From NCBI GenBank assembly GCA_035430005.1, contig DAOMFV010000005.1:15196-79195 (forward strand): a stretch of DNA of 64,000 bases. The letters run 5' to 3'. Shown piece by piece: positions 31,496-53,091 of the stretch. The position numbers and the translations under genes were made by a program. The notes under the pieces were generated by a model that saw nothing but the letters and a program-made list of their open reading frames with translations, had not been told where the DNA came from and did no database searches. Positions within the stretch are counted from its first letter, which is position 1, and every line of letters begins with the position of its first letter. The stretch is from Gemmatales bacterium. Its GTDB lineage: Bacteria; Planctomycetota; Planctomycetia; Gemmatales; HRBIN36.

Positions 31496-32275
31496 CTAAA
31501 CCCGGAGTTGCGCCATACTTGCTTTTATGGCTAATTGCCTCTTTCTCCAAGCGACTACGCCTGCTCCCAGGGTTCCAACACCTATCAATGCCCAGGTAGT
31601 TGGTTCAGGGACGGCAAACGTAAACTGCGTTACCAGACCAAGGGTATCAGTATTGCCTGTGGCATCATTCACGCTATCCGGCGGAACGCTATAAAGACGA
31701 GAGACAGAATCCCCCAGAGTGTTTTCAGCATCAAATTGAGTAGTGGTGCCAGCGCCGAAATTTCTTACATCCATGAGCAAGTTTCCCAAAGCTGGATCAT
31801 ACAGGAAGGGTGTTTGGAGCGTGATTACAATATCAAAGTTATGTGGCGGGCCGCCTGTATTTGTTGAGGACAGGGTCAAGGCACCGTTATAAACCATGCT
31901 GTCATCACTGCCCACATTGCTGGCAAACGTTGAGCTGAGGCCGTCTGGTAATGCGGAAGTAGTAGAGAGATTGATCTGCATACTCGGTAAGGTGGTACTG
32001 AAGGCGGAACCAAATGTAATGTCAGTGCGAAAACTGATAGCAGTAATGAGAGCTGGCCCACCGAAAGAACTGAATTGCGAGGATGCGTATACCTGTTGAA
32101 CGCGTTGACTGGTACGCCCAAAATCACTGATGTTAAATGGCGCACCGTTATTGAGATTTCCCTCAACGTTAGCCAGGGCATTGGGCACTACCACATTTTG
32201 GGCGGGAGCTAGGCCCGGCATGCTAACAAGCGCCAGGCAGCCTAACATTCCTACCAACTTTCTTCGCAGCTTCAT
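31496..32275 (-). CDS. PEP-CTERM sorting-domain protein
   Basis: Signal peptide MKLRRKLVGMLGCLALVSMPGLAPA. C-terminus VPEPTTWALIGVGTLGAGVVAWRKRQ, i.e. PEP motif + TM + basic tail. Confidence 0.8.
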   Translation of the reverse strand: MKLRRKLVGMLGCLALVSMPGLAPAQNVVVPNALANVEGNLNNGAPFNISDFGRTSQRVQQVYASSQFSSFGGPALITAISFRTDITFGSAFSTTLPSMQINLSTTSALPDGLSSTFASNVGSDDSMVYNGALTLSSTNTGGPPHNFDIVITLQTPFLYDPALGNLLMDVRNFGAGTTTQFDAENTLGDSVSRLYSVPPDSVNDATGNTDTLGLVTQFTFAVPEPTTWALIGVGTLGAGVVAWRKRQLAIKASMAQLRV

Positions 32276-32442
32276 TTGATTGCAAGCTTGGATGACTAGG
32301 TGTGTAACATGGAGGAGTGTCGATTTAAGCATGTGAACAAAACAGAGTCAAACTTATTCTTAAAGCTTCGTGTTTCTGAAGCTCCGAGCACATCATAACT
32401 GAGTGCCTAACCGTTTATGAATCTGACACTACCCCGCAGAAC

Positions 32443-33027: not shown

Positions 33028-34090
33028 TCAGGAGTCTTTGCGGTTGCTTACCTTGGTGATCTGTGATTGTGCAAAACTCACTGCTTGGTGCAGTCGTTTT
33101 TCTAAGACTGGACGAGGCGGCAGTTCGGTGAGGTACGTCGCTATTCGAATGCCGCTCTTATCCAGTTGCAACAACTCGATTTGTTCCGCCTTCTTGTCTG
33201 AGCAGATTGAAGCCCAAGGGACGTTCTTCACCTGGCTGCATTTCGTGTTTTTCCAGCCACCTCAAGTAGAGTTCCATTTGTCCCTTATCACCGGCCTGTA
33301 GTTTCCCCAATTTCAGCTCAACAGCAACCAAGCGGCGAATTATGCGATGGTAAAATAGTAAATCGAGATAATAGTCCTCTCCATCAATCACAATTCTCTT
33401 TTGTCGAGCGACAAAACTAAAGCCAGCACCAAGTTCAAGCATGAACTGTTCAATCTCTCGGAGTATTGCTGACTCTAAATCGGCTTCGGTGTATGCTCCC
33501 TTCAATCCCAGAAAATGGAGCAAGTATTGATCACGAAACACGAGGTCTGCTGACAACAGATCATCATGGCGAAGCTTTGAGAGTTCCTGTTTAGCCAATG
33601 CTTCTGGCTTCTTTGAGAGCGCTGTTCGCTCGAAAAGCATGCCCTGTATTTTGGCTCGAAGTGTTCGGACGCTCCACCGTTCAACTCGACAAAGCTCTGC
33701 GTAAAACTCACGTTTCAACGGATCATCGATTGGGTTGATTTCAACAAAGTGGCTCCATCCTAATTGTCTCGACAGTGTCGAGACAATTCGATGATCCGGA
33801 AACATCTCGGCAAATCGAACCATGCGGAAAAGGTTAGGTCTGGAAAAACCGTCACCGAATTCAGAAGTTAAAGCAGTGGCCAACGTTGGGATCACTGCCT
33901 CACCATAGTCTGCTCTTTTGGGCATTGAGTATTTCGGTGTGAATGCGTCTACCAATTTCCCAATACAGCATCACCAGCGTCGAGTTTACTGCTTGTGCGA
34001 CCCGTTCTTTAGTTTCTCGGATCAGAGACTGAATATCGGTCAACAACGAGCCACTCTTTGTAGCTGTCAGCTGGTGTCAGTAATAGAACC
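33028..34090 (-). pseudogene. DUF1016 (YhcG-like PD-(D/E)xK nuclease) gene broken by two frameshifts
   Basis: Three consecutive frames carry consecutive parts of the protein. Frame 1 (~34075-33920): SLLTDIQSLIRETKERVAQAVNSTLVMLYWEIGRRIHTEIL. Frame 2 (ORF 33158..33955): KRADYGEAVIPTLATALTSEFGDGF...YYLDLLFYHRIIRRLVAVELKLGK. Frame 3 (ORF 33028..33231): ICSDKKAEQIELLQLDKSGIRIATYLTELPP. No start codon is evident. Confidence 0.75.
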
Positions 34091-34890: not shown

Positions 34891-35211
34891 TTAGATCAAA
34901 CAGGCCCGATCGAGAGATCTCTGCATCATGCGAACCAACTTTACTCCCAAGGCCTGATGCAATAACGTGTCGCACCATTCCTGGTCTTCAAAGCGATAGC
35001 GTATCTGAACTGCACGCACCTCACCCGTCATCATCTTCTCGCGTGCGAGAGGCAGATCTATGGGGTTTTCGCCTACATGATCACTCGGTGATTGTTTCTC
35101 ATGCACACTGATAATCTCGGCATATGTCGCCAGATCCTTGAAGTACTGATCCAGCGTAGCTGAGTCTAACAGTTTGTCCCAGATGGCCGGCAACGGTTCC
35201 AATTGGTTCAT
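34891..35211 (-). CDS. hypothetical protein translationally coupled to napB
   Basis: ATGA start/stop overlap with the upstream tetrahaem gene. 106 aa with no Cys motifs, TM or signal peptide. No family recognised. Confidence 0.55.
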   Translation of the reverse strand: MNQLEPLPAIWDKLLDSATLDQYFKDLATYAEIISVHEKQSPSDHVGENPIDLPLAREKMMTGEVRAVQIRYRFEDQEWCDTLLHQALGVKLVRMMQRSLDRACLI

Positions 35212-36011
35212 GGCTGCCCTTTCTGAAAATCAACTTGATCCAAGGCGGCAGAGGGTGCATGGCACTGGGTACAGTTGGTGAGCCAGGGATGTGTTGTGCG
35301 AATGCCGGCCCGGGCGACTAAGCCATGGCAACTGGTGCAATCCTGCCGCATCCAGGTAGTGTGCGGTATGGTCGGCGGCGCTCCGGGCCAGGCGCGAGTG
35401 CCCGGACCGGCGCGTTTCGTGCCTTCGAAGTCATTCTCACTGAGGAAATGCCTAACGAGTGCAGATTCTGAACGGTTCTCTTCGACATGACATTGGGTGC
35501 AATTGGTGTAATGCGGATGACTGACTTTGGTAGCAATCCGATCACCCACTTTGATGCCTTCCGCATGACAAGCCAGGCAGTTAGAGACCTGTGGTTGGTT
35601 AATAGCATGGGGAATCACTGGAGGGGCTGAGTCATAGGCTCGATTGCGAGTTCGATCAGCCAATGCCACTTGCTTCATTTCATCGGTACGAATGACAGGA
35701 TCGAAAGGGCCTGGCTTGGCGAAACTCAACTTGCTGAGATCGGAGGACCAGCCACTATTGGCCTTGAGTTTGGCATTCGGCAACTCACTGTACGTGACAG
35801 CCTCTGGCACGTCACTCAAATTGATGCTCGCTTCAGCTCGTGTTTTCTCCAGCGGCAAAGGCTCGTTGATGCCTCGAAGAAAGCCCACGAGAGTAATGCC
35901 CAACGCGATCACGACGAACAGAACCACATACCGTTGCAGGATACCCGGCATGATCGCCGTGGCATCTCGTGGCAAGGCCTCATGAGAATCAGGCGGATGG
36001 GAGTGTTGCAT
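35208..36011 (-). CDS. napB: membrane-anchored tetrahaem cytochrome c made of two NapB-like dihaem units
   Basis: Two copies of the NapB signature: APPVIPH..(N9)..CLACH...SHPHYTNCTQCH and APPTIPH..(N7)..CTSCH...THPWLTNCTQCH. TM helix YVVLFVVIALGITLVGFL. GGAGG lies 6 nt before the ATG at 36011, directly after the napA stop. Confidence 0.8.
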   Translation of the reverse strand: MQHSHPPDSHEALPRDATAIMPGILQRYVVLFVVIALGITLVGFLRGINEPLPLEKTRAEASINLSDVPEAVTYSELPNAKLKANSGWSSDLSKLSFAKPGPFDPVIRTDEMKQVALADRTRNRAYDSAPPVIPHAINQPQVSNCLACHAEGIKVGDRIATKVSHPHYTNCTQCHVEENRSESALVRHFLSENDFEGTKRAGPGTRAWPGAPPTIPHTTWMRQDCTSCHGLVARAGIRTTHPWLTNCTQCHAPSAALDQVDFQKGQP

Positions 36012-36013
36012 GA

Positions 36014-38488
36014 TTAGCCTCCGCTGACCGGTGTCGTTTGATTCGCCTTGACCATACGCACCGCACACTTCTTGTAATCAGGCTGCTTGCTGTAAGGACA
36101 ATGTGCTTCCAGCGTCAGCAGGTTGCAGAGCAGCTTTTCATCAAAGAACGGGATGAAGAGATGCCCTGGCGGGCACTTGCCACGCCCATCGACCCAAGCT
36201 GGCAGCGTCAACGTGCCACGCCGGGTTTCGAGGCGAACGTGATCGCCCGTCTTGATGCCCAGTTGCCCTGCATCTTCCCGGCTGACTTCGACGTAGGAAC
36301 CAGGCATCGCTCTTCGCAATTGTGGTATCCGCATGGTCATGGTGCCAGTATGCCAATGTTCAAGTACACGGCCGGTATCAAGCCAAAGCGGATAGTCCTT
36401 GTCAGGCACTTCAGGTGGTGCCAGGTAAGGCCGGAACCAGATCAGCGCCTTGTCGTCCTTAGTGACAGAGTGATAAAACTGGATACCTTTTCCCTTCTCG
36501 ACATAGCTGTCGTAGCCTTCGATGAAGCGATAGCGGGTCTCCTGCCAGTCGCCGTTAGGCTTTTGAATCACGGGCCAGCGTAGCCCTCGAGCCTTGACCA
36601 GCTCAGCATACGGTGCCACATCCTTGTGCTTGATCTTGGTGAATTGTCGGTACTCGGTGAAGAGCTTTTCATCGACGTTGACTTTGCCATAGTAGTTCTC
36701 CCATTTCCAGATCTCGACGGGTTCACCCTTTTGATCTGTGACATGGAAGAGGAACTTGCCATCCTTGTCCTTCATACCGGGATGTCCCAGTTCGAGCAGC
36801 CGGTGGGCGACGGCGATCGTTTGCCAGCAGTCATCACGTGCCTGGCCGGGGGGAGGAACCATCTTGAACCACTGATGGGTTCGACGTTCGGAGTTACCAA
36901 ACACGCCATTCTTCTCGACCCACAGGGCTGAGGGTAAAATCAGGTCAGCCAGTTCAGTGGTGGCTGTCGGATAGACATCGGAGACGATGAGGAACTTGTT
37001 TTCCAGCCCTTTTTTGCTCCGGAACAACTTGTTGATGTTCGGCAGCGACTGGCCCGGATTGGTCACCTGCACCCAGATGGTATCAATATCACCGCCTTTG
37101 TCGGAAGGGGTGCAGAACTTCTCCCACATCAGCACGGTATGGTAGCCGATCTTGGGATTGATCCGGCCAGCGGGGAGGTTCCACAGATGTTCAGCCTTGG
37201 CACGCTGAACATCATCATCGACTTTGAGATCACCCGGAAGCGCATGGCACAGTGTCCCCACTTCTCGAACGGTACCACAGGCAGAAGGTTGCCCGGTCAA
37301 ACTTTGCGGTCCATCACCGGGTCTTCCAAAGTGCCCACTGAGCAAATGAATGCCATGTACCAGGTTATTAATGGCCGTACCCATGGTGTGCTGGTTCATG
37401 CCCATGCACCAGAGGCTGACGATCTTGAGCTGCGGATTACCAAACAACTTACCCAGCAGCTTCAGGTCATCTACGGAAAGCCCACTTAGTTCGCTGGCTT
37501 TCTCCGGGGTGTAGGTCGCCACCATCTGCTGAAATTGCTCAAAGGTAATCGGCTTGCCCATCAGGGTGCCAAACGTCTTGTATTCATCCCAATTCTTGAG
37601 CGTGTCGTAACGGGCAGGCTCCGCATCAGCACGGAAGTTGCAGTACTTTGTGACAAACTCAGCGTTGTAGGTCTTGTTAGCGATGAGTTGCTGAGCGATG
37701 CAATTCGCAATAGCCAGGTCGCCATTCGGCTTCATCGTCATGACGTGGTTGGCTTGCTCCGAAGTACGAGTGCGACGCTGGCTGATGTCCACCAGAACCA
37801 CTTTGTCGCCACGTAACCGACGGTCGATGATTCGGCTGAAGAGGACGGGGTGCATCTCGGCTGGGTTGTTGCCCCAGAGGATGACCACATCCGCCTGGTC
37901 GAGATCGTCGTAACAGTTGTACGGCTCATCCACGCCATAGGTACTGATGTATCCTGTGACGGCGGAGGCCATGCAGAGGCGGGCGTTAGGCTCGATCTGA
38001 TTACTTGCCAAGCCACCCTTCATGAACTTGTTGGCAGCATAGCCTTCTGGCACCGTCCACTGCCCCGAGCCATAAAAGGCAAAGCGATTGGGAGCACGCA
38101 TCACTCTTTGAGCAATGGTATTGATCGCTTCCTCCCAACTGATCGGCTCCATCTTGCCATTCTTGCGAAGCAGGGGAGTGGTCAGGCGATCTTTGCCATA
38201 AAGCACTGAGCCAACGTGATAGCCTTTGACGCAGAGCAAGCCTTTGTTAACCTCAGCTTGCCGATCCCCAGCGATAGCAACGACTCGGTTATCCTTGACC
38301 GCTACCTGTACGTGGCAGCCTGTACCGCAGAAACGGCATGGCGCTTTGTTCCAGGTAACATCGGGAATGACTGGCAGTTCCGTGCGTGGTGGCTGCCCGG
38401 CTGGAGCATTCTGTTCCATGGCCAGGGCGGTAGCAGCAGCCATGGCGCTGGTTCTGACAAAATCACGCCGGCTCAGTTCGTTAGTCAT
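36014..38488 (-). CDS. napA: periplasmic nitrate reductase catalytic subunit
   Basis: Tat signal SRRDFVRTSAMAAATALA. 4Fe-4S motif CRFCGTGC...C. ARLCMASAV (region of the Mo-ligand Cys). 824 aa. Flanked by napD and napB. Confidence 0.95.
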   Translation of the reverse strand: MTNELSRRDFVRTSAMAAATALAMEQNAPAGQPPRTELPVIPDVTWNKAPCRFCGTGCHVQVAVKDNRVVAIAGDRQAEVNKGLLCVKGYHVGSVLYGKDRLTTPLLRKNGKMEPISWEEAINTIAQRVMRAPNRFAFYGSGQWTVPEGYAANKFMKGGLASNQIEPNARLCMASAVTGYISTYGVDEPYNCYDDLDQADVVILWGNNPAEMHPVLFSRIIDRRLRGDKVVLVDISQRRTRTSEQANHVMTMKPNGDLAIANCIAQQLIANKTYNAEFVTKYCNFRADAEPARYDTLKNWDEYKTFGTLMGKPITFEQFQQMVATYTPEKASELSGLSVDDLKLLGKLFGNPQLKIVSLWCMGMNQHTMGTAINNLVHGIHLLSGHFGRPGDGPQSLTGQPSACGTVREVGTLCHALPGDLKVDDDVQRAKAEHLWNLPAGRINPKIGYHTVLMWEKFCTPSDKGGDIDTIWVQVTNPGQSLPNINKLFRSKKGLENKFLIVSDVYPTATTELADLILPSALWVEKNGVFGNSERRTHQWFKMVPPPGQARDDCWQTIAVAHRLLELGHPGMKDKDGKFLFHVTDQKGEPVEIWKWENYYGKVNVDEKLFTEYRQFTKIKHKDVAPYAELVKARGLRWPVIQKPNGDWQETRYRFIEGYDSYVEKGKGIQFYHSVTKDDKALIWFRPYLAPPEVPDKDYPLWLDTGRVLEHWHTGTMTMRIPQLRRAMPGSYVEVSREDAGQLGIKTGDHVRLETRRGTLTLPAWVDGRGKCPPGHLFIPFFDEKLLCNLLTLEAHCPYSKQPDYKKCAVRMVKANQTTPVSGG

Positions 38489-38754
38489 GACTGTGCTCCC
38501 TGGGCCAGTACCTCGGGTTCGTGATCAGCAACGGAAACGTAGGCAACATGGACATCGAGTACGCCGGGCAACTCGCTGAGCCAGCGATGCCAGCGTAGCG
38601 AATCCTCCGGTGCTGTCACCTCCATCACAACTGACAGGCGTTGACCAGCCAACTCACCGACAGTAAATGGGCCAGCTTGCTGAATAGCTGCCATGGCTGA
38701 TTGGATAACGTCAACTTCTGGTTCGAATGCCACTACTAAACCGGAGATGTACAT
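38485..38754 (-). CDS. napD: NapD chaperone
   Basis: MYISGLVVAFEPE... (the NapD-type H/YISSLVV start). ~89 aa. The stop overlaps the napA start (ATGA). An alternative upstream start is at 38787. Confidence 0.8.
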   Translation of the reverse strand: MYISGLVVAFEPEVDVIQSAMAAIQQAGPFTVGELAGQRLSVVMEVTAPEDSLRWHRWLSELPGVLDVHVAYVSVADHEPEVLAQGAQS

Positions 38755-38813
38755 GGCGCTCTCACTCCGTTCGAGAAGAACTCCCAAGGTAATCTAGCAG
38801 AGCCATCGTCTAT

Positions 38814-38843
38814 ATCAAGAATAAAAGAATGATTATTCTTGAT
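38814..38843. promoter_or_regulatory. operator-like inverted repeat in the divergent napD / cytochrome c promoter region
   Basis: ATCAAGAATA-N10-TATTCTTGAT, with perfect 10-bp arms; the hexamer AAGAAT also recurs in the spacer. Each arm contains a TTGAT(A/T) -35-like hexamer. On the + strand: TTGATT 38839-44, 17 nt, TAAGTT. On the - strand: TTGATA, 16 nt, TAGATT. Confidence 0.5.
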
Positions 38844-38892
38844 TTAATCCTCTATCCCGTGTAAGTTGACGATGTACCTCGGGGAGATGCTT

Positions 38893-39570
38893 ATGCCACA
38901 CGCCCCTGAACCTGTGCCGTCCTTCGCACGATCTAGAATGGTCAAAGGACTAAGCTTTGTCTTGGTGATTGCTCTATTAGCAGTACTATTGCTGTTCCCC
39001 AAGCCTCAAAGTGTGGTCGTACCTGAGAAAGTTCAAACCGCATCTGCTGTTAATGAAGAACGCCATTTCGAAACCTTCATCCGCAAACCTGCTGGACCAC
39101 CTTCGGTTAAGACTGGCCTGCTTGATCCCCATGGGCAGCCGGTCAGTGTAGCTTGCAATACCTGTCATGCCACCAGGTCGCCCAATGCCGAACTGCGTGT
39201 CGGTGGAAATCTTTCGACATTTCATCAAGGTCTGAAGGGCAATCACGGCAACTTGACTTGTGTCTCCTGTCACAATGGTAACGAAGGCTATCAGACCCTT
39301 CGCCTTGCCGACGGTAAGTCATTGCCCTTCACCGAAGTGATGCAACTCTGTGCCCAGTGCCATGGCCCGCAGTTTCGTGATTATTCCCACGGAGCCCATG
39401 GCGGCATGACAGGTTACTGGGATCTCACCCAGGGGCCACGGCAACGCAACAACTGCATTGATTGCCACGATCCACATTTCCCCAAGTATCCCACCGTGCG
39501 TCCCGCTCAAGGGCCTCACGACCGTTTTCAGTCCTCCCCTCATGACCAGAAAGGAACAGGCCATGAGTAA
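38893..39570 (+). CDS. membrane-anchored tetrahaem cytochrome c (c3/ActA-like)
   Basis: CNTCH, CVSCH, CAQCH and CIDCH at ~35-aa spacing. TM helix LSFVLVIALLAVLLLF. Start set at ATG 38893 (GGGGAG 6 nt upstream). The ORF track begins at TTG 38866, which would overlap the predicted -10. Confidence 0.8.
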   Translation: MPHAPEPVPSFARSRMVKGLSFVLVIALLAVLLLFPKPQSVVVPEKVQTASAVNEERHFETFIRKPAGPPSVKTGLLDPHGQPVSVACNTCHATRSPNAELRVGGNLSTFHQGLKGNHGNLTCVSCHNGNEGYQTLRLADGKSLPFTEVMQLCAQCHGPQFRDYSHGAHGGMTGYWDLTQGPRQRNNCIDCHDPHFPKYPTVRPAQGPHDRFQSSPHDQKGTGHE

Positions 39571-40495
39571 CAAGAAATTCTCGCTTCCTGTTCTCGGCGA
39601 GGTAGACCGTCGCACTGCTGTCAAAGCGGGAGCTGTCACCCTGGGCCTGGCCATGCTGGCCAAGGCGATTCAACCCGTGATGGAGTGGAGTTCCAATCTC
39701 ACCGCCGACGAGTTCCTGCAGAAGCACTACAAGGAACTGAAACCCAAGGAACTTGATGTTGTCATCAAACGACTTCAGGAAGAAGCACTGCATGAATATG
39801 GGCGTGAGGTGAAGATCAAGAACCCGCAGGCTAAGTCTGGTGTGAAGTATGCTTACGCTCTCAATCTCAGCATCTGTATCGGGTGCCGCAAGTGTGCGGA
39901 AGCCTGTCACCTCGAAAACAATCACGACCGGGCAACACATAACAGCTACATCCGCGTCTTTGAAATGCAGAAGGGTGGCATCGATTTCGAGAAGGGCAAC
40001 TGCACCTACGATAATCCGGTGCCTGCTCCTGACAAGTTCTACATGCCCGTCCAATGTCAGCAGTGCGATAACCCTCCCTGTGTGAGTGTTTGCCCGGTCG
40101 AAGCCACCTGGAAAGAAAAGGATGGCCTTGTCGTCGTCGATTACAACTGGTGCATTGGCTGCAGATATTGCGAAGCAGCCTGCCCTTACCATGCCCGCCG
40201 ATTTAACTGGACTAAGCCCGAGATCAGCCCGAAAGAAATCAATCCGAACCAGGGGTATCTCTCCAATCGTGTCAGGCCTCAGGGCGTGATGGAGAAATGC
40301 ACGTTCTGCCTGCATCGGGTACGGGAAGGGCGACTGCCCGCCTGTTTGGAAGCCTGCCCCACGGGTGCCCGTGTCTTTGGGAATATCCTCGATCCCAAAT
40401 CGGAGATACGCTGGGTGCTGGAAAACAAGCGAGTCTTCGTTCTCAAGGAAGAACTCGGTACCAAACCTAACTTCTTCTACTTCTTTGACAAGTAA
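39563..40495 (+). CDS. periplasmic 4x[4Fe-4S] ferredoxin-type subunit (NrfC/PsrB/HybA-like)
   Basis: Tat-like DRRTAVKAGAVTLGLAML. Four Cys clusters: CIGCRKCAEAC, CQQCDNPPCVSVCP, CIGCRYCEAACP, CTFCLHR...CLEACP. The ATG overlaps the upstream stop. Confidence 0.85.
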   Translation: MSNKKFSLPVLGEVDRRTAVKAGAVTLGLAMLAKAIQPVMEWSSNLTADEFLQKHYKELKPKELDVVIKRLQEEALHEYGREVKIKNPQAKSGVKYAYALNLSICIGCRKCAEACHLENNHDRATHNSYIRVFEMQKGGIDFEKGNCTYDNPVPAPDKFYMPVQCQQCDNPPCVSVCPVEATWKEKDGLVVVDYNWCIGCRYCEAACPYHARRFNWTKPEISPKEINPNQGYLSNRVRPQGVMEKCTFCLHRVREGRLPACLEACPTGARVFGNILDPKSEIRWVLENKRVFVLKEELGTKPNFFYFFDK

Positions 40496-40506
40496 GGGAG
40501 GTACTC

Positions 40507-41781
40507 ATGAGTTCCCTTGCTACACCATCGAAAGAGCCTTCCTCGGCACTACTCAGCTATCCACGCTTCCTGCGACAAGCACTTCATGTCTCAACAGAAG
40601 GCACTTGGGTCTTCTATCTCTGGATGACCGTGCTGACTGCGGTATCGCTCGTGGGCGCCAACGCCTGGGCTGTCCAGGTGCGAGACGGCATGGCCCGAAC
40701 CGGGATGTCCGACCATGTTAGCTGGGGGCTTTACATCGCCAACTTCACCTTTTGCGTCGGGCTGGCTGCCGGCGGTGTGATGATGGTGATTCCTGCCTAT
40801 CTCTACCACGATGAAGAAATGCATGATGTGGTCATTGTCGGCGAAATCGTCGCCATTGCTGCCATCATCATGAGTACCTTATCGGTCGTCGTCGATCTGG
40901 GCCGTCCCGATCGTTTCTGGCATCTCATGCCCGGTATCGGTCGATTCAATTGGCCCATTTCGATGCTGACCTGGGATATCATTGTTCTAAACGGCTACCT
41001 GCTCATCAATCTGCACATCGTTGGCTACCTGCTCTACATGCGTTTTCTCGGTCGCAAGCCTAACCCGAAGTGGTACATGCCTTTTGTGTTTCTCTCCATT
41101 ATCTGGGCTATCAGCATTCATACGGTAACTGCTTTTCTTTACTGTGGCCTGGGTGGTCGTCCCTTCTGGAACACGGCACTGCTGGCCCCACGCTTCCTGG
41201 CTTCGGCTTTTGTCTCGGGACCATGCTTTATCATCCTGTTGCTACAACTCATTCGTGCCACCAGCCGTTTCAACATCGGTGAAGCGCCCATCCGCACGTT
41301 GATACAGATCATTCGGGTGGCTATCTGCATTAATCTGCTGATGACAGTCTCGGAGTTGTTCACCCTTTTTTACACGGGCGGAGGACATGCTGCAGCAGGA
41401 CAGTACCTTTTCTTTGGTTCTCACGGAAAGACAGGTCTTGTTCCCTGGATATGGACATCCTTGATACTCAGTATCCTCGGTTGCCTGCTCTTCTTGTCTC
41501 CCGGAGTGATGAAGAAAGGCTGGCTGTTAACCCTGGCCTGCATCATCTGCTTTGTGGCCATATGGATCGAAAAAGGCATGGGGCTGATCATCCCCGGCTT
41601 TATTCCATCCACCCTGCATGAGGTAGTAGAGTACGTTCCTAGCCTGACAGAGTGGAAGATAACGGTGGGTATCTGGGCTTTTGGTATGGTAGTCTTAACC
41701 GTCATCTTGAAGATTGCTATAGCCGTCTTCAACAACGAGATGAAACTCAACGGCAACACTATCCAGCAAGAAGCAGTATGA
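40507..41781 (+). CDS. NrfD/PsrC-family integral membrane quinol-interacting subunit
   Basis: 424 aa, ~10 TM helices, NrfD-like sequence (WGLYIANFTFCVGLAAGG...RPDRFWH...). It follows the FeS subunit after an 11-nt gap. Confidence 0.85.
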   Translation: MSSLATPSKEPSSALLSYPRFLRQALHVSTEGTWVFYLWMTVLTAVSLVGANAWAVQVRDGMARTGMSDHVSWGLYIANFTFCVGLAAGGVMMVIPAYLYHDEEMHDVVIVGEIVAIAAIIMSTLSVVVDLGRPDRFWHLMPGIGRFNWPISMLTWDIIVLNGYLLINLHIVGYLLYMRFLGRKPNPKWYMPFVFLSIIWAISIHTVTAFLYCGLGGRPFWNTALLAPRFLASAFVSGPCFIILLLQLIRATSRFNIGEAPIRTLIQIIRVAICINLLMTVSELFTLFYTGGGHAAAGQYLFFGSHGKTGLVPWIWTSLILSILGCLLFLSPGVMKKGWLLTLACIICFVAIWIEKGMGLIIPGFIPSTLHEVVEYVPSLTEWKITVGIWAFGMVVLTVILKIAIAVFNNEMKLNGNTIQQEAV

Positions 41782-42224
41782 CTCCCTACGGTAAGACAGC
41801 ACAGCATGCCATCGCCGCAGTCAGCCTGCTGGCCCAGGTCTATTCTCAGAATAAGAAACTGAGTTCGATCGATATCGCCAAAGAACGTGGATTGCCCAAG
41901 CCAGTCGTCGCCAAGGTGTTGACTGTCTTATCGCAAGCCGGCATCGTTGCCGGCGCTCCGGGACCTGGAGGCGGCTACTGCCTGGCCAAGCCTCCTGAGA
42001 AAATCACCCTGGCTGATGTGGCTGAGTGCTTCGACCGCCAGAAGGAAACTGTCTGCTGTCCCTTTGGACCTACCTATTGTGGAACGGGGAATCCCTGTCC
42101 ATTGCATCATCAACTAACTGCTATTCGTGATCGGTTAGTTCATTTCTTGAATACGAATACGCTTGCATCCTTCACGAAAGTTGCCAGACTGAAGAAAATC
42201 CCTGCCTCAGACGCCGAGGAATAG
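41778..42224 (+). CDS. Rrf2-family transcriptional regulator (NsrR/IscR-like)
   Basis: [20 protein letters not shown]...[28 protein letters not shown]...[10 protein letters not shown] (Rrf2 wHTH). Cys cluster [23 protein letters not shown] overlap with the nrfD-like stop, and the gene ends 2 nt before the nrfH ATG. Confidence 0.85.
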
Positions 42225-42226
42225 GC

Positions 42227-42706
42227 ATGAAAGTACTCAAGTGGTTGATTGGTGGCAGCCTGGCGAGTCTTCTCGTCTGGATCATGCTGGGTCTGTGTGT
42301 CGGTTCGGGTACCTATACCGTCTACTATGGCGAAGGTCTTTCTTATCTCAGCAGCAATCCCAAAGCCTGCGTCAACTGCCACATCATGCGTGAGCAATAT
42401 GATGGATGGCAAAAGTCGAGTCATCACGCTGCTGCCACCTGCGTCGATTGCCATCTACCCCATGAGTTCGTCGGCAAATGGATAGCCAAAGCTGAGAATG
42501 GCTTCTGGCATTCCAAGGGCTTCACTCTGCAGGACTTTCACGAACCGATCCGCATTCATCAGAAGAACGCCAATATTCTGCAGGCGAACTGCGTTCAGTG
42601 CCATCAGGATTTCGTCCATGATGTGGCAGTTACTTCCACAGCCAACCATGAAAGTCTGAAGTGCACCCATTGTCACATGCATGTGGGTCATGGTCCCACT
42701 CGCTGA
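42227..42706 (+). CDS. nrfH: NrfH, membrane tetrahaem quinol dehydrogenase (NapC/NirT family)
   Basis: N-terminal TM. CVNCH, CVDCH, CVQCH, CTHCH. 159 aa. Directly upstream of nrfA. Confidence 0.9.
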
Positions 42707-42741
42707 CCTGATTATTCGCTGTAACTCTTTGCCTTTGAGGA

Positions 42742-44187
42742 TTGATCGTGTCTAACCAAGCAACTACGAAACCACGAAGCTGGCTGGGACAACTCGTTCT
42801 CTGCCTGATCATCGCCGGCGTTACCTTTGGTGTCATGCTGCTCTGGCAGAACATTGCAGAGCGAAAGCAGGAATCCAGGCACCAGGTTTTCAAGGTCACT
42901 GATGTTTCAGAAGAGACTATCGACCCCAGCATCTGGGGGAAGAATTACCCTCGGCAATACGACAGCTACTTGCGCACCGTCGATATCGAACGCACCAAGC
43001 ATGGCGGTTCCGAAGCCTTCCAGAAGCTCGATGAAGATCCGCGCTGGCGAACGCTGTTTAAAGGCTACGCCTTTGGAGTGGATTACCGCGAAGAGCGTGG
43101 CCACGCTTACATGCTGTCTGACCAGGATCAAACAGAACGAGTCAAGCAGTTCAAACAACCGGGAGCCTGCCTGCACTGCCATGCTTCGATCATTCCCGCC
43201 TACAGAGAACAAGGAGTCAAAGCAGGCATTCCTAAGGATGAAGCTCATCGCCAGGAAGCCATCATGAAAGGATTCGAAACAGTCTGTGCCATGCCCTATG
43301 CCGAAGGACGCAAGCTCGTTTCGCATCCAGTGAGTTGTGTCGATTGTCACCATCCCGATACCATGGCACTTCGTGTGACCCGCCCCGGGTTTCTCAATGG
43401 CGTCAAAGCGCTTGCGGAATCGAACGACCCAACGCCCCATCTCCCCAGCATCGAACGCTGGCGCAAAGGTTCTCGCAAAACACCCTACGACCCCAACACG
43501 GAGGCCAGCCGGCAGGAGATGCGTTCGATGGCCTGTGGGCAGTGTCACGTCGAATACTATTTCAAGGGCGAAGGCAAACTGCTGACCTACCCTTGGCAGA
43601 AGGGCCTCAAGGCTGATCAAATCGAGAGTTACTACGACGAGGTGGGCTGGAAGGATTGGGTTCATGCTGACTCAGGTGCCCCGGCGCTGAAGGCGCAGCA
43701 TCCGGAGTTTGAAATGTGGTCGCAGGGTATTCATGCCCGTTCAGGTGTCTCCTGTGCCGATTGCCACATGCCGTACAAGCGGGAAGGAGCCATCAAAGTC
43801 AGCGATCACCATGTTCGCAGTCCCATGCTCAATATCTCCCGGGCCTGCCAGACCTGTCACCACTATCCCGAACAGGAGATCTTGAATCGTGTCACTGCCA
43901 TTCAGGACCGCACCAAGGCACTCATGTTACGGGCGGAAGACGCAACGGTAGATCTAATCAAGAACTTAGCTGCTGCAAAATTGGAAGGCATGAATGATGA
44001 GCAATTGAAAGCTGCCCGTGCTCTACACCGCAAGGCCCAATGGCGGCTCGATTTCGTCGCCGCTGAGAACTCGATGGGTTTCCATGCACCTCAGGAAGCA
44101 GCACGGCTACTCGGTGAAGCCATCGATTACGCCCGACAAGGGCAAGTGAAGGTACTGGAACTCAGCAAGCCCAAGCCAGGCAAGTAA
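42742..44187 (+). CDS. nrfA: pentahaem cytochrome c nitrite reductase (ammonia-forming)
   Basis: NrfA-like blocks: YPRQYDSY, GYAFGVDYREERGH, CGQCHVEYYF, KAQHPEFEMW, CADCHMPY, CQTCHH. Five haem motifs: CLHCH, CVDCH, CGQCH, CADCH, CQTCH. The start may be TTG 42742 or GTG 42748 (GAGGA upstream). Confidence 0.9.
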   Translation: MIVSNQATTKPRSWLGQLVLCLIIAGVTFGVMLLWQNIAERKQESRHQVFKVTDVSEETIDPSIWGKNYPRQYDSYLRTVDIERTKHGGSEAFQKLDEDPRWRTLFKGYAFGVDYREERGHAYMLSDQDQTERVKQFKQPGACLHCHASIIPAYREQGVKAGIPKDEAHRQEAIMKGFETVCAMPYAEGRKLVSHPVSCVDCHHPDTMALRVTRPGFLNGVKALAESNDPTPHLPSIERWRKGSRKTPYDPNTEASRQEMRSMACGQCHVEYYFKGEGKLLTYPWQKGLKADQIESYYDEVGWKDWVHADSGAPALKAQHPEFEMWSQGIHARSGVSCADCHMPYKREGAIKVSDHHVRSPMLNISRACQTCHHYPEQEILNRVTAIQDRTKALMLRAEDATVDLIKNLAAAKLEGMNDEQLKAARALHRKAQWRLDFVAAENSMGFHAPQEAARLLGEAIDYARQGQVKVLELSKPKPGK

Positions 44188-44204: not shown

Positions 44205-44232
44205 AAAAGGGGCAGACAATGTCTGCCCCTTC
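44205..44232. terminator. bidirectional stem-loop between convergent nrfA and the outer-membrane protein gene
   Basis: AAAA-GGGGCAGACA-A-TGTCTGCCCC-TT. 10-nt complementary arms, an A-run on one side and TT on the other. Confidence 0.6.
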
Positions 44233-44254: not shown

Positions 44255-45898
44255 TTACCAGCGATAGCCATAAATGATGTAAAGCAAGTCTGAGTCAACC
44301 GCTTTGTTTGGCCCAGCGGTGTTCTCCAGGAAGCTGCCGCCGAAAAGTTTGCTGTAGCCCACCATCAAGTCCGAATGCTTGGTCAGATGGAAGTTGGCGG
44401 TGAAATCAAGTTCGGTACCCACATCACGCCCGGCTGATCCATTGGGAGAACGGCGATAGGCGCTGCCTGCTGCGTTGTAAAGGGCGTCCTCACTCTCAGC
44501 CAGCCAGAAATGATGGGCCTGGAACCAGAGTGTCATCCAGTTGACGGGGTACAGGAATAAGTGAGCATTTAGATCCTGGATATTCTGCCTGCCTACCAGG
44601 TCAGCCCAACCCAGGTAGTAGTGGCCAAAAGGAAAGAGCTGATTGAAAGTGTTGTAGTTACCAGAGTTGGGATTCGAATCACCACTGGCATAGTCGTAGT
44701 AGAGCCAGAAGGTCGGATTCATAGGCAACTGATCAAAGTGATAGCCAGCACCTGCGGTAGCCATGCCGGCAACGATGCTTTCTTTGCCTCGTTCACCGAG
44801 TTGCAGTGCGACTTCGCCATCCCATAAGAAGTTGTACTTATCGCCAGAGTAACGAGTGCCCAGGGTATGAGCCTGGAAGGGGGCACGAGCAATACCTTGT
44901 TGGACAACGGTGTTCTCGTTATCGAGATAGAGATAATAGAAATCGACAGACTGCCCTTTTTCTGGTCGATACGTTGTCCAGAGACCGGCAAAGTTCTGCT
45001 TCTCATCCCATGAATCGAGCTTGTTGGCATCGGGAATGACAGGCCTGACCCAGAACGCGGTGACATCCCAATCCTCACCCTGCCTGAAAGCTGACACACC
45101 CTGGAACGTACGGCGAGTATTAGCCCAATCCAGCGATGAGATCAGTCGCTGGGAGCCAAGGAGCATTTCCTGACGACCGACTCGCACATAGACGGGTTTA
45201 CCATCGACTTCGCCCAGTTTCATGTCCATGAACAAGTTGAGGAAGTCAGCCCGGTTAACATCATTAGGCAGGGGAGGTAGATCATATCCTGTGATATCGG
45301 CTGAGATAAACTCGGTGTAGATTCGGAACTTGTCTTGGTACCAGAGGTCGCCATAAGCACGAACTCGTTCAACGGTGTATGTATTATTCACCTCGGTCAG
45401 TCGGCTGTTGCCTTCGTTCATATTGCGAATCCAGGCTTGGCCACCTGTAGAAAAGAGCCAATTGTCGCCAATACGAATTCGCTTGAGGGGATCAAAGAAA
45501 TCGTGACTGGTGTTATTTGGATCATCCAAATATCGGAAATCAGCGTTGAAGAGGCCGGGCTGCATCAAAGCAAAGGGCGGGTAACCATACTTGGGCGGAC
45601 TCTCTCTCCATTCGCCACGAAGTTCATCCAGCACCGAATAGTAGCCAGGTCCCTTGGGAGGGTTAGGAAAATTGCCGGTCCGTGGCGTGGGCCAGATGGG
45701 TGGCACGTTTTTGAAGTCAAATGCTCCATTCCCTGAGCATGTGTCACAGGGTGCAACGACAACTACAGGAGCTGCGATTTCCTTAACTGGTGCTTCTTGA
45801 GCACATATAGTAGGTGATTCTGCCAAAAAAGCGCTGATACACCCCACCATCAGAACGTGGCACCAGGGCCAATGGTTTCGGACCATGACACCCTCCAT
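44255..45898 (-). CDS. putative outer-membrane beta-barrel protein (alginate-export/porin-like, tentative)
   Basis: Signal-like N-terminus, alternating beta-strand pattern with aromatic girdles, and a C-terminal ...LLYIIYGYRW ending in an aromatic residue, as in OMP beta-signals. Confidence 0.45.
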   Translation of the reverse strand: MEGVMVRNHWPWCHVLMVGCISAFLAESPTICAQEAPVKEIAAPVVVVAPCDTCSGNGAFDFKNVPPIWPTPRTGNFPNPPKGPGYYSVLDELRGEWRESPPKYGYPPFALMQPGLFNADFRYLDDPNNTSHDFFDPLKRIRIGDNWLFSTGGQAWIRNMNEGNSRLTEVNNTYTVERVRAYGDLWYQDKFRIYTEFISADITGYDLPPLPNDVNRADFLNLFMDMKLGEVDGKPVYVRVGRQEMLLGSQRLISSLDWANTRRTFQGVSAFRQGEDWDVTAFWVRPVIPDANKLDSWDEKQNFAGLWTTYRPEKGQSVDFYYLYLDNENTVVQQGIARAPFQAHTLGTRYSGDKYNFLWDGEVALQLGERGKESIVAGMATAGAGYHFDQLPMNPTFWLYYDYASGDSNPNSGNYNTFNQLFPFGHYYLGWADLVGRQNIQDLNAHLFLYPVNWMTLWFQAHHFWLAESEDALYNAAGSAYRRSPNGSAGRDVGTELDFTANFHLTKHSDLMVGYSKLFGGSFLENTAGPNKAVDSDLLYIIYGYRW

Positions 45899-46200
45899 GA
45901 TAGTCTGTCGTGCTCAGCTTCCTGCTGAGATCTCAGGTTCAGCATCGACACTTTCAAAGTGGATAGTTGCATCTTATTAGACAGACTTCTGCCTTTTTTG
46001 GCAGGAGCCAACATAAGCACGCAGATTCGCTACAGATTAACAGGGTTTGTAATCTGAACATTGGTGACAATGCGAAGGACCAGAGAAAATGACCTTAATT
46101 AACGAAACAATGGTAGTTTATTCTCTATATTATCGATAACTGCCCTGTTCACCCTTATGATAGGCTATTCCGCCCATCAGATTGCACGAACCGGTGACTT

Positions 46201-47522: not shown

Positions 47523-47608
47523 CTACATAGGTAGTTGTGCGGTGGGCCAGACATTCTTGTCTGGCCTGCACAGACAAGAATGTCTGTGCCACCTAATCTC
47601 ATATGTAG
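47523..47608. repeat. 86-nt imperfect palindrome with a 15-bp perfect central stem
   Basis: AGACATTCTTGTCTG (47549-47563), loop GCCTGCA, then CAGACAAGAATGTCT (47571-47585). Outer arms CTACATA (47523-29) and TATGTAG (47602-08). Confidence 0.6.
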
Positions 47609-48888: not shown

Positions 48889-49234
48889 TGAATCCGAGAT
48901 TCGCGATCACTACAGCAAGATCATCAAACGGCTCGGTCATGAAGTAGTGGCTGCGGTCGATACGGGGAATGCGCTCATCGAAGTCTGCCAACGTCTGCAT
49001 CCTGATCTGATCATCACCGATGTCCACATGCCTGGACTCGATGGGGATCAAGCGGTACGGGAAGTGTGGAAGTGCGAGACCATCCCGACAATTCTGATCT
49101 CTGCCTATGATCAACCCAAGGACTTTCCGCCGGCTGGTATCAACGTAGCCTGGGCCTATCTGAGCAAGCCCGTCAAAAGGCTCGACTTTGAAGCAGCCAT
49201 TCGTGCTACAATGAATACAGCAACTTTCGAATGA
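48854..49234 (+). CDS. single-domain response regulator (REC only)
   Basis: RIAIADDE...DLIITDVHMPGLDG...LSKP. It overlaps the kinase 3' end by 35 nt. Confidence 0.8.
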   Translation: MSPPLRIAIADDESEIRDHYSKIIKRLGHEVVAAVDTGNALIEVCQRLHPDLIITDVHMPGLDGDQAVREVWKCETIPTILISAYDQPKDFPPAGINVAWAYLSKPVKRLDFEAAIRATMNTATFE

Positions 49235-49256
49235 GAAGCTCCCGCTCAGGGTAGAT

Positions 49257-53079: not shown

Positions 53080-53091
53080 ACGGAGGCGCCT

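What the first reader, a model, noticed from the sequence alone, without database searches (positions are those of the whole stretch)
38788..38892. Symmetric operator-like repeat covering both -35 elements of the divergent napDAB and cytochrome c-FeS-NrfD-rrf2-nrfHA promoters
Seen in sequence: the 105-bp divergent intergenic region contains ATCAAGAATA-N10-TATTCTTGAT (38814-38843), with perfect 10-bp arms. The hexamer AAGAAT appears three times (twice direct, once inverted). Each arm supplies a TTGAT(T/A) hexamer at the correct distance from a -10-like hexamer: 17 nt to TAAGTT on the + strand, 16 nt to TAGATT on the - strand. Established knowledge: the FNR/CRP consensus is TTGAT-N4-ATCAA, and this site does not match it because the half-site orientation and spacing differ. 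Rrf2 regulators such as NsrR bind AT-rich inverted repeats of roughly this size. Inference: a single dimeric or tetrameric regulator could control both operons at once. The obvious candidate is the Rrf2 protein encoded inside the rightward operon, which would tie nitrate and nitrite reduction to an NO or Fe-S signal.
Basis: partly seen in the sequence, partly recalled or inferred. Interest (0 to 1): 0.55.

Follow-up and report, generated by a model that had tools for sequence, protein, structure and literature searches.

The report
Conserved Rrf2 operator between nap promoters
A 28-bp DNA palindrome between two back-to-back nitrate/nitrite-respiration operons of a planctomycete is conserved at the same spot across two bacterial phyla, and is most likely the docking site of an uncharacterised iron-sulfur (Rrf2-type) regulator encoded in one of those operons.

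Summary
The core at 38815-38842 reads TCAAGAA-N14-TTCTTGA, with 11-bp perfect arms, and no comparable match occurs in shuffled sequence. Each arm supplies a TTGAnn -35 hexamer, with a TAnnnT -10 hexamer 16-17 nt away.

It is also a strong phylogenetic footprint. The divergent napBA(D) <-> cytC-FeS-NrfD arrangement recurs in 80 Planctomycetota/Verrucomicrobiota loci. Of these, 28 carry the same palindrome (<=1 arm mismatch) in that intergenic region. In 1.24 Mb of loci, every matrix hit >=18 bits lies there.

Motif presence tracks a window-type Rrf2 gene in the locus (19/26 vs 7/37; Fisher p 2e-5, not corrected for phylogeny). Searching from the regulator side, all 13 nap loci whose contig reaches that region carry the site. 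In addition, 9 of 48 stand-alone rrf2 genes have a motif-like site just upstream, against 3 of 1167 background windows.

The regulator has an Rrf2 fold and invariant Cys94/Cys101/Cys107/His110. It is only 20-26% identical to IscR, NsrR, RsrR or CymR, and no paper in the searched library describes it.

Best reading: this is the operator of a new Rrf2 clade, most likely a repressor occluding both -35 elements. The signal (O2/redox vs NO) is unresolved, and binding has not been shown experimentally. I class it as a new member of a known kind.

The parts
38815..38842 (.). Operator core: 28-bp palindrome TCAAGAATAAAAGAATGATTATTCTTGA (TCAAGAA-N14-TTCTTGA)
   Evidence: Scores 49.1 bits with the PWM built from 26 orthologous sites. 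It is the only hit >=18 bits in the 64-kb window.
38812..38845 (.). Extended block that is nearly invariant among the five closest relatives (ATATCAAGAATAAAAGAAT[G/A]ATTATTCTTGA[T/A]TT)
   Evidence: Alignment A2: flanking intergenic bases vary, whereas only 2 positions of this block vary.
38817..38830 (+). Two direct AAGAAT copies (38817-38822, 38825-38830). The second gives the conserved central G (matrix column 13).
   Evidence: G at column 13 in 22 of 26 sites.
38835..38840 (+). Inverted copy ATTCTT, part of the right arm
38839..38867 (+). Predicted rightward promoter: -35 TTGATT (38839-38844), 17-nt spacer, -10 TAAGTT (38862-38867). Predicted TSS near 38874.
   Evidence: the same TTGAnn-16/17-TAnnnT geometry in 20 of 26 loci. 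TSS not mapped.
38791..38818 (-). Predicted leftward promoter: -35 TTGATA (38818-38813), 16-nt spacer, -10 TAGATT (38796-38791). Predicted TSS near 38784.
   Evidence: The -10 block GGTA[A/C]TCTAGC is invariant in close relatives.
35208..38754 (-). Leftward operon: napD (38485-38754), napA (36014-38488), napB-like multihaem cytochrome (35208-36068)
   Evidence: Pfam. Overlapping stop/start junctions.
38893..44187 (+). Rightward operon: cytochrome c (38887/38893-39570), FeS DsrO-like (39563-40495), NrfD/DsrP-like (40507-41781), rrf2 (41778-42224), nrfH (42227-42706), nrfA (42742-44187)
   Evidence: Pfam/NCBIfam. Junctions of -8 to +35 nt, including an ATGA overlap of nrfD/rrf2. Same order in L161/L164.
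41778..42224 (+). Candidate regulator: 148-aa Rrf2-family protein with invariant C94, C101, C107, H110
   Evidence: PF02082 91 bits, TIGR00738 83 bits. Ligand alignment to IscR. Invariance. AF2 model pLDDT 84, and the top 37 PDB hits are all Rrf2 proteins.
44207..44231 (.). GC-rich hairpin between convergent nrfA and the AlgE-like gene. Probable terminator that closes the rightward operon.
   Evidence: 11-bp perfect palindrome AAGGGGCAGAC..GTCTGCCCCTT. Sequence.
46100..46127 (.). Possible weak second site (TAACGAAACAATGGTAGTTTATTCTCTA) in the divergent region between the AlgE-like porin gene and ORF 46201
   Evidence: 14.6 bits, the second-best hit in the window. Hits of 10-18 bits outside nap regions are rare in 1.24 Mb. 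Not conserved in L001. Tentative.

Best explanation
The palindrome is the operator of the Rrf2-family iron-sulfur transcription factor encoded at 41778-42224, inside the rightward operon. The protein belongs to an uncharacterised clade with IscR-like Cys3His ligand positions. Its 28-bp site is centred midway between two back-to-back sigma-70-type promoters, and each outer arm (TTCTTGA) contains one -35 hexamer. A bound regulator therefore controls napDAB and cytC-FeS-NrfD-rrf2-nrfHA together, including its own gene.

Most likely it represses by blocking RNA polymerase from both -35 elements, and it leaves the DNA when its cluster changes state.

Shown here: the site, its conservation, the promoter geometry, co-occurrence with the regulator gene, and the regulator's fold and conserved ligands. 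Inferred: physical binding, the sign of regulation, and the signal (O2/redox or NO).

I put about 0.8 on 'operator of this Rrf2 clade' and about 0.6 on the whole statement including repression.
For: (1) The site is real and non-random.

(2) Orthologous conservation. 28 of 80 nap loci from Planctomycetota and Verrucomicrobiota have TCAAGAA-N13-15-TTCTTGA with <=1 arm mismatch in the nap/cytC intergenic region. All PWM hits >=18 bits in 1.24 Mb of loci plus the window lie there. At short distance a 33-bp block is invariant while flanks vary.

(3) Link to the regulator. With a window-type Rrf2 in the locus, 19/26 loci have the motif and 4 more have a related variant. Without one, 7/37 do. Odds ratio 11.6, Fisher p 2.4e-5. 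In an independent metagenome set seeded from the Rrf2 protein, all 13 nap-context loci whose contig reaches the nap/cytC intergenic region carry the site there. In the same set, 9/48 stand-alone rrf2 genes have a site >=18 bits within 260 nt upstream, against 3/1167 control windows. More distant orthologues show drifted versions of the same layout.

(4) Promoter overlap. TTGAnn-16/17 nt-TAnnnT occurs on both sides in most planctomycete loci. Near-consensus -35 hexamers inside the operator fit occlusion better than activation.

(5) The protein is a bona fide Rrf2. C94/C101/C107/H110 are invariant and align with IscR C92/C98/C104/H107. The recognition-helix residues A45-K46-V47-L48-T49 are invariant.

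(6) Precedents. E. coli NsrR represses both nrf and nap (PMC12285233). RsrR binds inverted repeats in its divergent nmrA-rsrR region and autoregulates (PMC5015018).
Against: There is no experimental binding, TSS or expression data.

Seven loci have the motif but no window-type rrf2 within the sequenced flank: L002 and five verrucomicrobial loci, plus L008, which has a different Rrf2. Three loci with the rrf2 lack a recognisable site (L004, L007, L072).

The loci are phylogenetically related, so the Fisher p overstates independence.

The two stand-alone rrf2 genes near nap in Luteolibacter (L051, L061) have no site of their own.

The outer arms are 21 bp apart centre to centre. That is wider than characterised Rrf2 operators: the 23-bp NsrR site, the 11-3-11 RsrR site, and the 29-bp fragment used for IscR (PMC9338935, PMC5015018). 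One dimer may not span the site, so stoichiometry is open.

Part of the arm conservation could reflect -35 function.

Repression versus activation cannot be decided from sequence. The centre lies near -45 of both predicted starts.
Confidence: 0.6

Rival explanations
1. Same protein and same site, but the Rrf2 acts as an activator. In this reading a holo-form present only under low oxygen binds at about -45 of both promoters and recruits RNA polymerase to both, like a bidirectional class-II FNR site. This would make the clade a functional analogue of FNR.
For: The regulated genes are anaerobic or micro-oxic respiration genes. Orthologues sit next to cbb3 oxidase (L109, L112, L118, L148, L158) and a Nar/Nxr-like enzyme (L101), the classic FNR/FixK targets. 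The site centre is about 44-46 bp from both predicted starts. Within the family, IscR activates some promoters and RsrR was proposed to do both (PMC5015018).
Against: Both -35 hexamers are already good (TTGATT, TTGATA) and lie inside the arms, which is unusual for activator-dependent promoters. Most characterised Rrf2 proteins repress. About -45 is not the canonical -41.5 register. Sites upstream of stand-alone rrf2 genes suggest negative autoregulation.
Confidence: 0.2
2. The palindrome is a genuine operator, but it is bound by another, unlinked transcription factor. The neighbouring Rrf2 gene would then regulate something else or only a subset of targets.
For: Seven motif-bearing loci lack a window-type rrf2 in the available flank, and three rrf2-bearing loci lack the motif. 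The 21-bp arm spacing is atypical for known Rrf2 sites (PMC9338935).
Against: No other regulator gene is conserved in these loci. The protoglobin kinase/sigma-54 regulator in the window belongs to the cco unit and is found near nap only in L001. Motif-like sites upstream of stand-alone rrf2 genes in unrelated contexts tie the motif to the regulator rather than to nap. Motif variants track Rrf2 divergence.
Confidence: 0.12
3. There is no dedicated regulator. The symmetry is simply two back-to-back -35 elements with an AT-rich, UP-element-like spacer, conserved as promoter architecture.
For: Each arm ends in TTGAnn at the right distance from a -10-like hexamer. The centre is 79% A+T.
Against: The bases outside the -35 hexamer (TTC of TTCTTGA) are invariant in 26/26 sites. 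The arm spacing is fixed at 14 (rarely 13 or 15) bp across two phyla. A central G is conserved in 22/26. The motif also occurs upstream of stand-alone rrf2 genes that have no divergent partner. TTCTTGA is not a general promoter feature: there are only 7 copies in the 64-kb window.
Confidence: 0.05
4. The palindrome acts as an RNA or DNA hairpin (terminator, attenuator, sRNA) or is a mobile-element remnant.
For: As RNA it folds at -10.3 kcal/mol, z = -3.2.
Against: It lies upstream of both predicted transcription starts, between divergent gene starts. The scan finds no terminator and there is no Rfam match. It is a single copy in the window and is conserved at an orthologous position, not dispersed.
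Confidence: 0.02

Closest known systems
NsrR of Escherichia coli (Rrf2 family) at the nrf and nap promoters
   Same: An Rrf2-family Fe-S protein that represses both the nitrite reductase (nrf) and the periplasmic nitrate reductase (nap) operons via an AT-rich inverted repeat (PMC12285233).
   Different: The window protein is not an NsrR orthologue (NF008240: 29 bits against a cut-off of 182; 23% identity to ScNsrR). The operator sequence and width differ (28 bp with outer 7-bp arms, against the 23-bp operator fragment in the ScNsrR-hmpA1 crystal complex, PMC9338935). It appears to be a local, operon-encoded regulator rather than a global one. ScNsrR ligates its cluster with 3 Cys plus Asp8 (PMC5411485), whereas here a His is conserved at the IscR His107 position.
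RsrR of Streptomyces venezuelae (Rrf2 family) at the divergent nmrA(sven6562)-rsrR region
   Same: A regulator gene in one of two divergent units. Inverted-repeat operators in a roughly 107-bp divergent intergenic region. Autoregulation plus repression of the divergent gene. A redox-switching cluster controls DNA binding, and the paper reports spectra like those of Cys3His-ligated [2Fe-2S] clusters (PMC5015018).
   Different: 21-25% identity. RsrR uses 11-3-11 repeats, two of them side by side. Its targets are NAD(P)H and glutamine metabolism, not respiration.
IscR (Rrf2 family)
   Same: It is the best sequence match among solved structures (E 2e-8). The three Cys and the His that ligate the IscR [2Fe-2S] cluster all align with invariant residues here.
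   Different: 42.7 bits against a TIGR02010 cut-off of 207.55. There are no isc/suf genes nearby. The operator is unrelated to the genes IscR is linked to.
Rrf2 of Desulfovibrio vulgaris, downstream of the hmc operon (founding member of the family; recalled from my own knowledge, not checked here)
   Same: The regulator gene sits at the 3' side of an operon for a periplasmic multihaem cytochrome c / FeS (DsrO/HmcB-like) / NrfD-type membrane complex, and it reportedly represses that operon. The gene layout is the same as cytC-FeS-NrfD-rrf2 here.
   Different: Different phylum and a different terminal pathway (sulfate versus nitrate/nitrite). No operator comparison was possible with these tools.
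FNR/CRP-family sites (TTGAT-N4-ATCAA)
   Same: Contains the pentamers TTGAT and ATCAA, overlaps -35 regions, and controls anaerobic respiration genes.
   Different: The half-sites face outward and are 20 bp apart (ATCAA-N20-TTGAT), so this is not an FNR box. No Crp/Fnr gene was found among the window ORFs scanned (31.5-55.3 kb).

Membership tests
Rrf2-family transcription factors (the protein at 41778-42224) | N-terminal winged helix-turn-helix of the Rrf2 type (PF02082 / TIGR00738) above curated cut-offs | tested here: met
   PF02082 91.1 bits (cut-off 30). TIGR00738 83.2 bits (cut-off 73.3).
Rrf2-family transcription factors (the protein at 41778-42224) | Rrf2 three-dimensional fold (wHTH plus long dimerisation helix) | tested here: met
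   AF2 model pLDDT 84.3, pTM 0.76. The 37 best PDB matches are all Rrf2 proteins (IscR, RsrR, CymR, NsrR), TM 0.57-0.74.
Fe-S cluster-containing Rrf2 subgroup | Three conserved Cys in the loop before the dimerisation helix | tested here: met
   C94, C101 and C107 (plus H110) are invariant in 24 and in 37 orthologues. They align to IscR C92/C98/C104/H107.
Fe-S cluster-containing Rrf2 subgroup | The protein actually binds a [2Fe-2S] or [4Fe-4S] cluster that modulates DNA binding | not testable with these tools
   Needs anaerobic purification and spectroscopy.
Rrf2-type operator (the DNA element) | AT-rich inverted repeat of about 23-29 bp within or next to the core promoter of the regulated gene, often in the regulator's own upstream or divergent region | tested here: inconclusive
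   The 28-bp, 79% A+T palindrome overlaps both -35 elements, and motif-like sites lie upstream of stand-alone rrf2 genes. However, the most conserved arms are 21 bp apart centre to centre, wider than 11-1-11 / 11-3-11 sites (PMC9338935, PMC5015018).
NsrR (NO-sensing repressor) | Equivalog-level sequence similarity | tested here: not met
   NF008240: 29.1 bits against a cut-off of 182. 23% identity to ScNsrR structures.
NsrR (NO-sensing repressor) | Control of NO-detoxification genes (hmp, hcp, ytfE and others) through an NsrR box | not tested
   No hmp or hcp genes turned up in the parts of the loci I annotated, but I did not search for them specifically. No NsrR matrix was available for a scan.
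IscR | Equivalog-level similarity and linkage to isc/suf genes | tested here: not met
   TIGR02010 42.7 bits (cut-off 207.55). NF008110 47.3 bits (cut-off 275). Neighbours are nap/nrf, cco or nar-like genes.
FNR/CRP binding site | TTGAT-N4-ATCAA (inward-facing half-sites, 14-bp core) | tested here: not met
   The sequence reads ATCAA-N20-TTGAT.

The most novel reading that the evidence does not exclude
This Rrf2 clade has more than 500 database members, all named only 'Rrf2 family'. It may be a previously unrecognised master switch for low-oxygen respiration in Planctomycetota, Verrucomicrobiota and relatives. On this reading it is an FNR-like function built on an Rrf2 scaffold with an IscR-like Cys3His cluster. 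It would control periplasmic nitrate reductase and its quinol-dehydrogenase module, NrfHA, Nar/Nxr-like enzymes and cbb3 oxidase. Its unusually wide 28-bp operator would double as the -35 elements of two promoters, so that one bound complex gates both.
Probability: 0.3. Interest if true: 0.65.

Novelty: new member of a known kind. Interest (0 to 1): 0.48.

Why it matters
The 2025 review of nrf/nap regulation that I read (PMC12285233) contains no mention of Planctomycetota or Verrucomicrobiota. My library searches found no paper on an Rrf2 regulator of nap in these phyla.

This finding gives a concrete, testable regulator-operator pair: a 148-aa protein, a 28-bp site and a position weight matrix. 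The pair is conserved across two phyla that are abundant in soils, sediments and waters where nitrate is either retained as ammonium (DNRA) or lost.

It also links one Rrf2 clade to three kinds of respiratory enzyme: Nap/Nrf, a Nar/Nxr-like enzyme and cbb3 oxidase. That suggests how these organisms sense the oxic-anoxic transition.

Mechanistically, a single palindrome that supplies both -35 hexamers of a divergent promoter pair is a compact design for co-regulating an enzyme and its electron-supply module.

Tried and rejected
FNR/CRP box: rejected, because half-site orientation and spacing are wrong.

Fur box: compared by eye only. AAGAATGATTATTCTTGAT matches 11/19 of GATAATGATAATCATTATC. I rejected it as weak, and the conserved positions across loci (TCAAGAA arms) are not the Fur positions.

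Known RNA element: none found.

Terminator: none found. The hairpin energy is modest and the site lies upstream of both predicted starts.

Mobile or repeated element: rejected. It is single-copy in the window and orthologously placed.

Protoglobin histidine kinase plus sigma-54 response regulator (47662-50591) as the nap/nrf regulator: rejected. These genes sit directly upstream of ccoNOP-ccoG, and both the kinase and the receiver gene recur near nap only in L001; the sigma-54 regulator also has a homologue in the L032 flank.

The 14-bp-stem palindrome at 47550-47584, which contains CAAGAAT: its arms are in the opposite orientation and it scores nothing with the matrix. It is probably a terminator after ORF 46201-47493.

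L162, where a 95%-identical Rrf2 heads an rrf2-nrfHA unit: I hoped it would be a natural test of autoregulation. Homology to the window starts 44 nt upstream of rrf2, inside the nrfD 3' end, and there is no operator. It is a rearrangement or an assembly chimera, so it is uninformative.

Second site upstream of the AlgE-like gene (46100-46127, 14.6 bits): a similar palindrome exists in L002 but not in L001, so I left it as tentative.

Sites upstream of the Luteolibacter stand-alone rrf2 genes (L051, L061): none.

One Pfam call failed on bad coordinates. One paper query failed on a term that was too short.

Full report
OBSERVATION. The window reads ATCAAGAATAAAAGAATGATTATTCTTGAT at 38814-38843. 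The repeat finder reports 14-nt arms at 93% complementarity (38811-38824 / 38833-38846, 8 nt between). The exact arms are 11 bp. The pattern has one match in the window and none in 100 dinucleotide shuffles, even with 3 mismatches allowed. About 0.2 palindromes with 11-bp arms are expected per 64 kb. AAGAAT lies at 38817 and 38825, and ATTCTT at 38835.

Pfam and NCBIfam confirm the genes. Leftward are NapD, NapA and a NapB-like multihaem protein. Rightward are a multihaem cytochrome c, a DsrO-like FeS protein, a DsrP/NrfD-like membrane protein, Rrf2, NrfH and NrfA. The rightward genes are packed with junctions of -8 to +35 nt, including an ATGA overlap of nrfD and rrf2. They end at a GC-rich hairpin at 44207-44231. 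One transcription unit is therefore plausible.

napD probably starts at ATG 38754 rather than TTG 38787. That makes the non-coding region about 132-138 bp.

CONSERVATION. A search of one genome per species with the cytochrome c protein returned 80 loci. All are labelled, or look like, Planctomycetota or Verrucomicrobiota, and the best is a Gemmatales MAG at 69% identity. Mapping the nine window proteins onto them shows that the divergent arrangement napB-napA-(napD) <-> cytC-FeS-NrfD is the rule. An Rrf2 gene often follows NrfD. nrfHA is adjacent only in the closest relatives.

In the divergent intergenic region, 22 loci carry TCAAGAA-N13/14-TTCTTGA with no arm mismatch, 6 more with one mismatch, and 3 with two. 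A 40-column matrix built from 26 sites gives the consensus wTCAAGAAwwAAaGA....TwwTTCTTGAwTT. The 14 arm positions are essentially invariant, and a central G is present in 22/26 sites. Every hit >=18 bits in 1.24 Mb of loci and in the 64-kb window lies in that intergenic region. Between 10 and 18 bits, almost all hits are weaker versions at the same place.

Among five close relatives, including two contigs whose Rrf2 is 92-95% identical, a 33-bp block is invariant except at two positions while the flanks change. The two -10 regions, a CGATGTAC block and the Shine-Dalgarno sequence are also conserved.

PROMOTER GEOMETRY. Each outer arm read outward is TTCTTGAnn. The TTGAnn part sits 16-17 nt from a TAnnnT hexamer on both sides in most planctomycete loci. 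An ungapped stack shows the TA at fixed distance on both sides. The verrucomicrobial loci are less clear. In the window these elements are TTGATT-17-TAAGTT rightward and TTGATA-16-TAGATT leftward. The generic scan also finds the leftward promoter. The palindrome centre (38828/38829) lies about 45 bp from both predicted starts. No transcription start has been mapped.

THE REGULATOR. The 148-aa protein passes the Rrf2 Pfam and TIGR superfamily cut-offs. It falls far below every equivalog cut-off (SufR-like, IscR, RirA, NsrR, CymR, HypR). Its best solved relative is IscR at E 2e-8. In that alignment the IscR cluster ligand positions (Cys92, Cys98, Cys104, His107) align with C94, C101, C107 and H110. 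These residues are invariant in 24 locus-derived orthologues and in 37 database orthologues. So is the recognition-helix stretch A45-K46-V47-L48-T49.

An AlphaFold model (pLDDT 84) matches only Rrf2 structures among its 37 best PDB hits, at 20-26% identity to IscR, RsrR, CymR and NsrR alike. The large protein database holds 519 relatives at E <= 1e-20. All are named generically.

A second, clearly different Rrf2 clade also occurs in some nap loci. It is 30-35% identical and has the motif CPLGxxSHxxLCPLH. It goes with loci that lack the palindrome.

LINK BETWEEN REGULATOR AND SITE. Among loci that can be scored, a window-type Rrf2 (>=41% identity) is accompanied by the motif in 19 of 26. Four of the seven exceptions carry an evident variant (ACAAnAAC...GTCTTGA in Novipirellula/Rhodopirellula). 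Without such a gene in the flank, 7 of 37 have the motif. The odds ratio is 11.6 and Fisher p is 2.4e-5, not corrected for phylogeny.

The reverse experiment is more telling. I searched metagenome contigs with the Rrf2 alignment and obtained 80 loci. All 13 nap-context loci whose contig reaches the nap/cytC intergenic region carry the site there. Among 48 stand-alone rrf2 genes, 9 have a site >=18 bits within 260 nt upstream, against 3 of 1167 control windows. Many others show drifted versions of the same layout, with GAA...GAcC...TTC arms changing to CCGGA/CGCGAA types. In these cases one arm is usually perfect and the other degenerate, and often there is no divergent partner gene. The motif therefore exists independently of the double -35 arrangement.

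WHAT THE CLADE SITS NEXT TO. In L101, the stand-alone rrf2 with a site upstream is followed by a cytochrome c/EB_dh protein and a 1171-aa molybdopterin enzyme, with a NarH-like FeS gene further on. In L109, L112, L118, L148 and L158, rrf2 is divergent from ccoNO. In L147 it precedes an Alginate_exp-type porin, the same family as the gene convergent with nrfA in the window. The common denominator is respiratory enzymes used at low oxygen.

MECHANISM. I consider it likely (about 0.8) that the palindrome is the operator of this Rrf2 clade. Repression by occlusion of both -35 hexamers is the most economical reading, for three reasons. The hexamers are near-consensus and lie inside the arms. Most Rrf2 proteins repress. 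Sites upstream of the regulator's own gene are typical of negative autoregulation.

Precedents exist. E. coli NsrR represses nrf and nap (PMC12285233). RsrR binds inverted repeats in its own divergent region, and its [2Fe-2S] cluster switches DNA binding with redox state (PMC5015018).

An activator model, a bidirectional FNR-like site at about -45, cannot be excluded, and I give it 0.2. One point does not fit neatly. The arms are 21 bp apart centre to centre. By contrast, the structures of NsrR, IscR and RsrR show recognition helices and wings contacting a 23-29-bp span, with the wings in the minor groove at the operator ends (PMC9338935). One dimer with strong bending, or two dimers, are both possible.

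WHAT IS KNOWN. Full-text searches combining Rrf2 or NsrR with Planctomycetes, Verrucomicrobia, nap or binding motifs found nothing describing this regulator or operator. A 2025 review of nrf/nap regulation lists only proteobacterial and Desulfovibrio systems. Rrf2 genes next to clade II nos clusters have been noted in metagenomes without operator analysis.

I therefore class the finding as a new member of a known kind: an Rrf2 Fe-S regulator with a palindromic operator in a divergent promoter region. It adds a new clade, a new motif and a new target set.

LIMITS. Everything rests on sequence. Binding, cluster type, signal, sign of regulation and transcription starts are all untested. Seven motif-bearing loci lack a linked rrf2, and three rrf2-bearing loci lack a recognisable site. 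Many loci are MAG contigs with uncertain taxonomy: L002 is labelled Bacteroidales and L012 Alcaligenaceae, yet their proteins are planctomycete-like.

Noticed in passing
L023, L030, L031, L038, L047, L049, L050, L055, L063, L077, L079 (cytC-upstream region, 53-145 nt before cytC): Pirellulaceae-type nap loci lack the palindrome. Instead they carry TGGCAC-N5-TTGC[T/A], a canonical sigma-54 -24/-12 element, reading toward cytC and overlapping the napD GTG start. The pattern GGCA[CT]-N5-TTGC gives 13 hits in about 29 kb of cytC-upstream sequence, 11 of them in these Pirellulaceae-type loci (the other two are L011 and L012), against 34 hits in the remaining roughly 2.5 Mb (both strands). A further conserved box (CACCTAAGTGTATACAT) follows. 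This suggests the same operon pair is wired to a sigma-54 activator in that family.
   Followed up: partly
window 46100-46127; L002 8897-8924: The second-best matrix hit in the window (14.6 bits) lies in the divergent region between the AlgE-like porin gene (44255-45898, -) and ORF 46201-47493 (+). In L002, a 9-bp-arm palindrome TCAAGGAAT..ATTCCTTGA sits about 250 nt upstream of the porin homologue. L001 has none. This is a possible extra regulon member.
   Followed up: partly
window 44255-45898 (-) and 46201-47493 (+): An Alginate_exp-family outer-membrane barrel and a 430-aa protein with no Pfam match are conserved neighbours of the nap/nrf cluster. The porin recurs in L001, L002, L007, L030, L031, L034 and L048. 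The 430-aa ORF recurs in L001 (there between rrf2 and nrfH), L026, L027 and L087. In L147, a stand-alone rrf2 is followed by the same porin family. They may be a nitrate/nitrite-related outer-membrane channel and an accessory protein.
   Followed up: partly
window 47662-55252: A protoglobin-coupled histidine kinase, a stand-alone receiver, and a sigma-54-dependent NtrC-type response regulator lie directly upstream of a fused ccoNO gene, ccoP and ccoG. A sigma-54-like GGCAT-N5-TTGCA sits at 48745. This looks like a haem-based gas-sensing two-component system for cbb3 oxidase.
   Followed up: partly
window 47550-47584: A perfect 14-bp-stem palindrome, GACATTCTTGTCTG-N7-CAGACAAGAATGTC, lies 57 nt after ORF 46201-47493 and about 80 nt before the kinase gene. 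It shares CAAGAAT with the operator but in the opposite arm orientation, and it does not score with the matrix. It is probably a terminator.
   Followed up: partly
L008 9741-9768, L028 about 9721: Two loci whose NrfD is followed by the second Rrf2 clade (32-34% identity) keep only the right arm TTCTTGA and have a different inner palindrome, AGATATGAATATCT. This may be the operator of the other Rrf2 clade.
   Followed up: no
L162 (GCA_025356825.1, JANXQM010000655.1) 2142: A contig of exactly 6000 nt carries rrf2-nrfHA that is 87% identical to the window. Homology begins abruptly 44 nt upstream of rrf2, inside what would be the nrfD 3' end, and is preceded by unrelated methyltransferase genes. 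This is a rearrangement or a MAG assembly chimera.
   Followed up: partly
window 33158-33955 (-): A YhcG/DUF1016 PD-(D/E)XK nuclease-family gene and a PEP-CTERM protein (31496-32332) flank the nap side. They appear unrelated to the finding.
   Followed up: no
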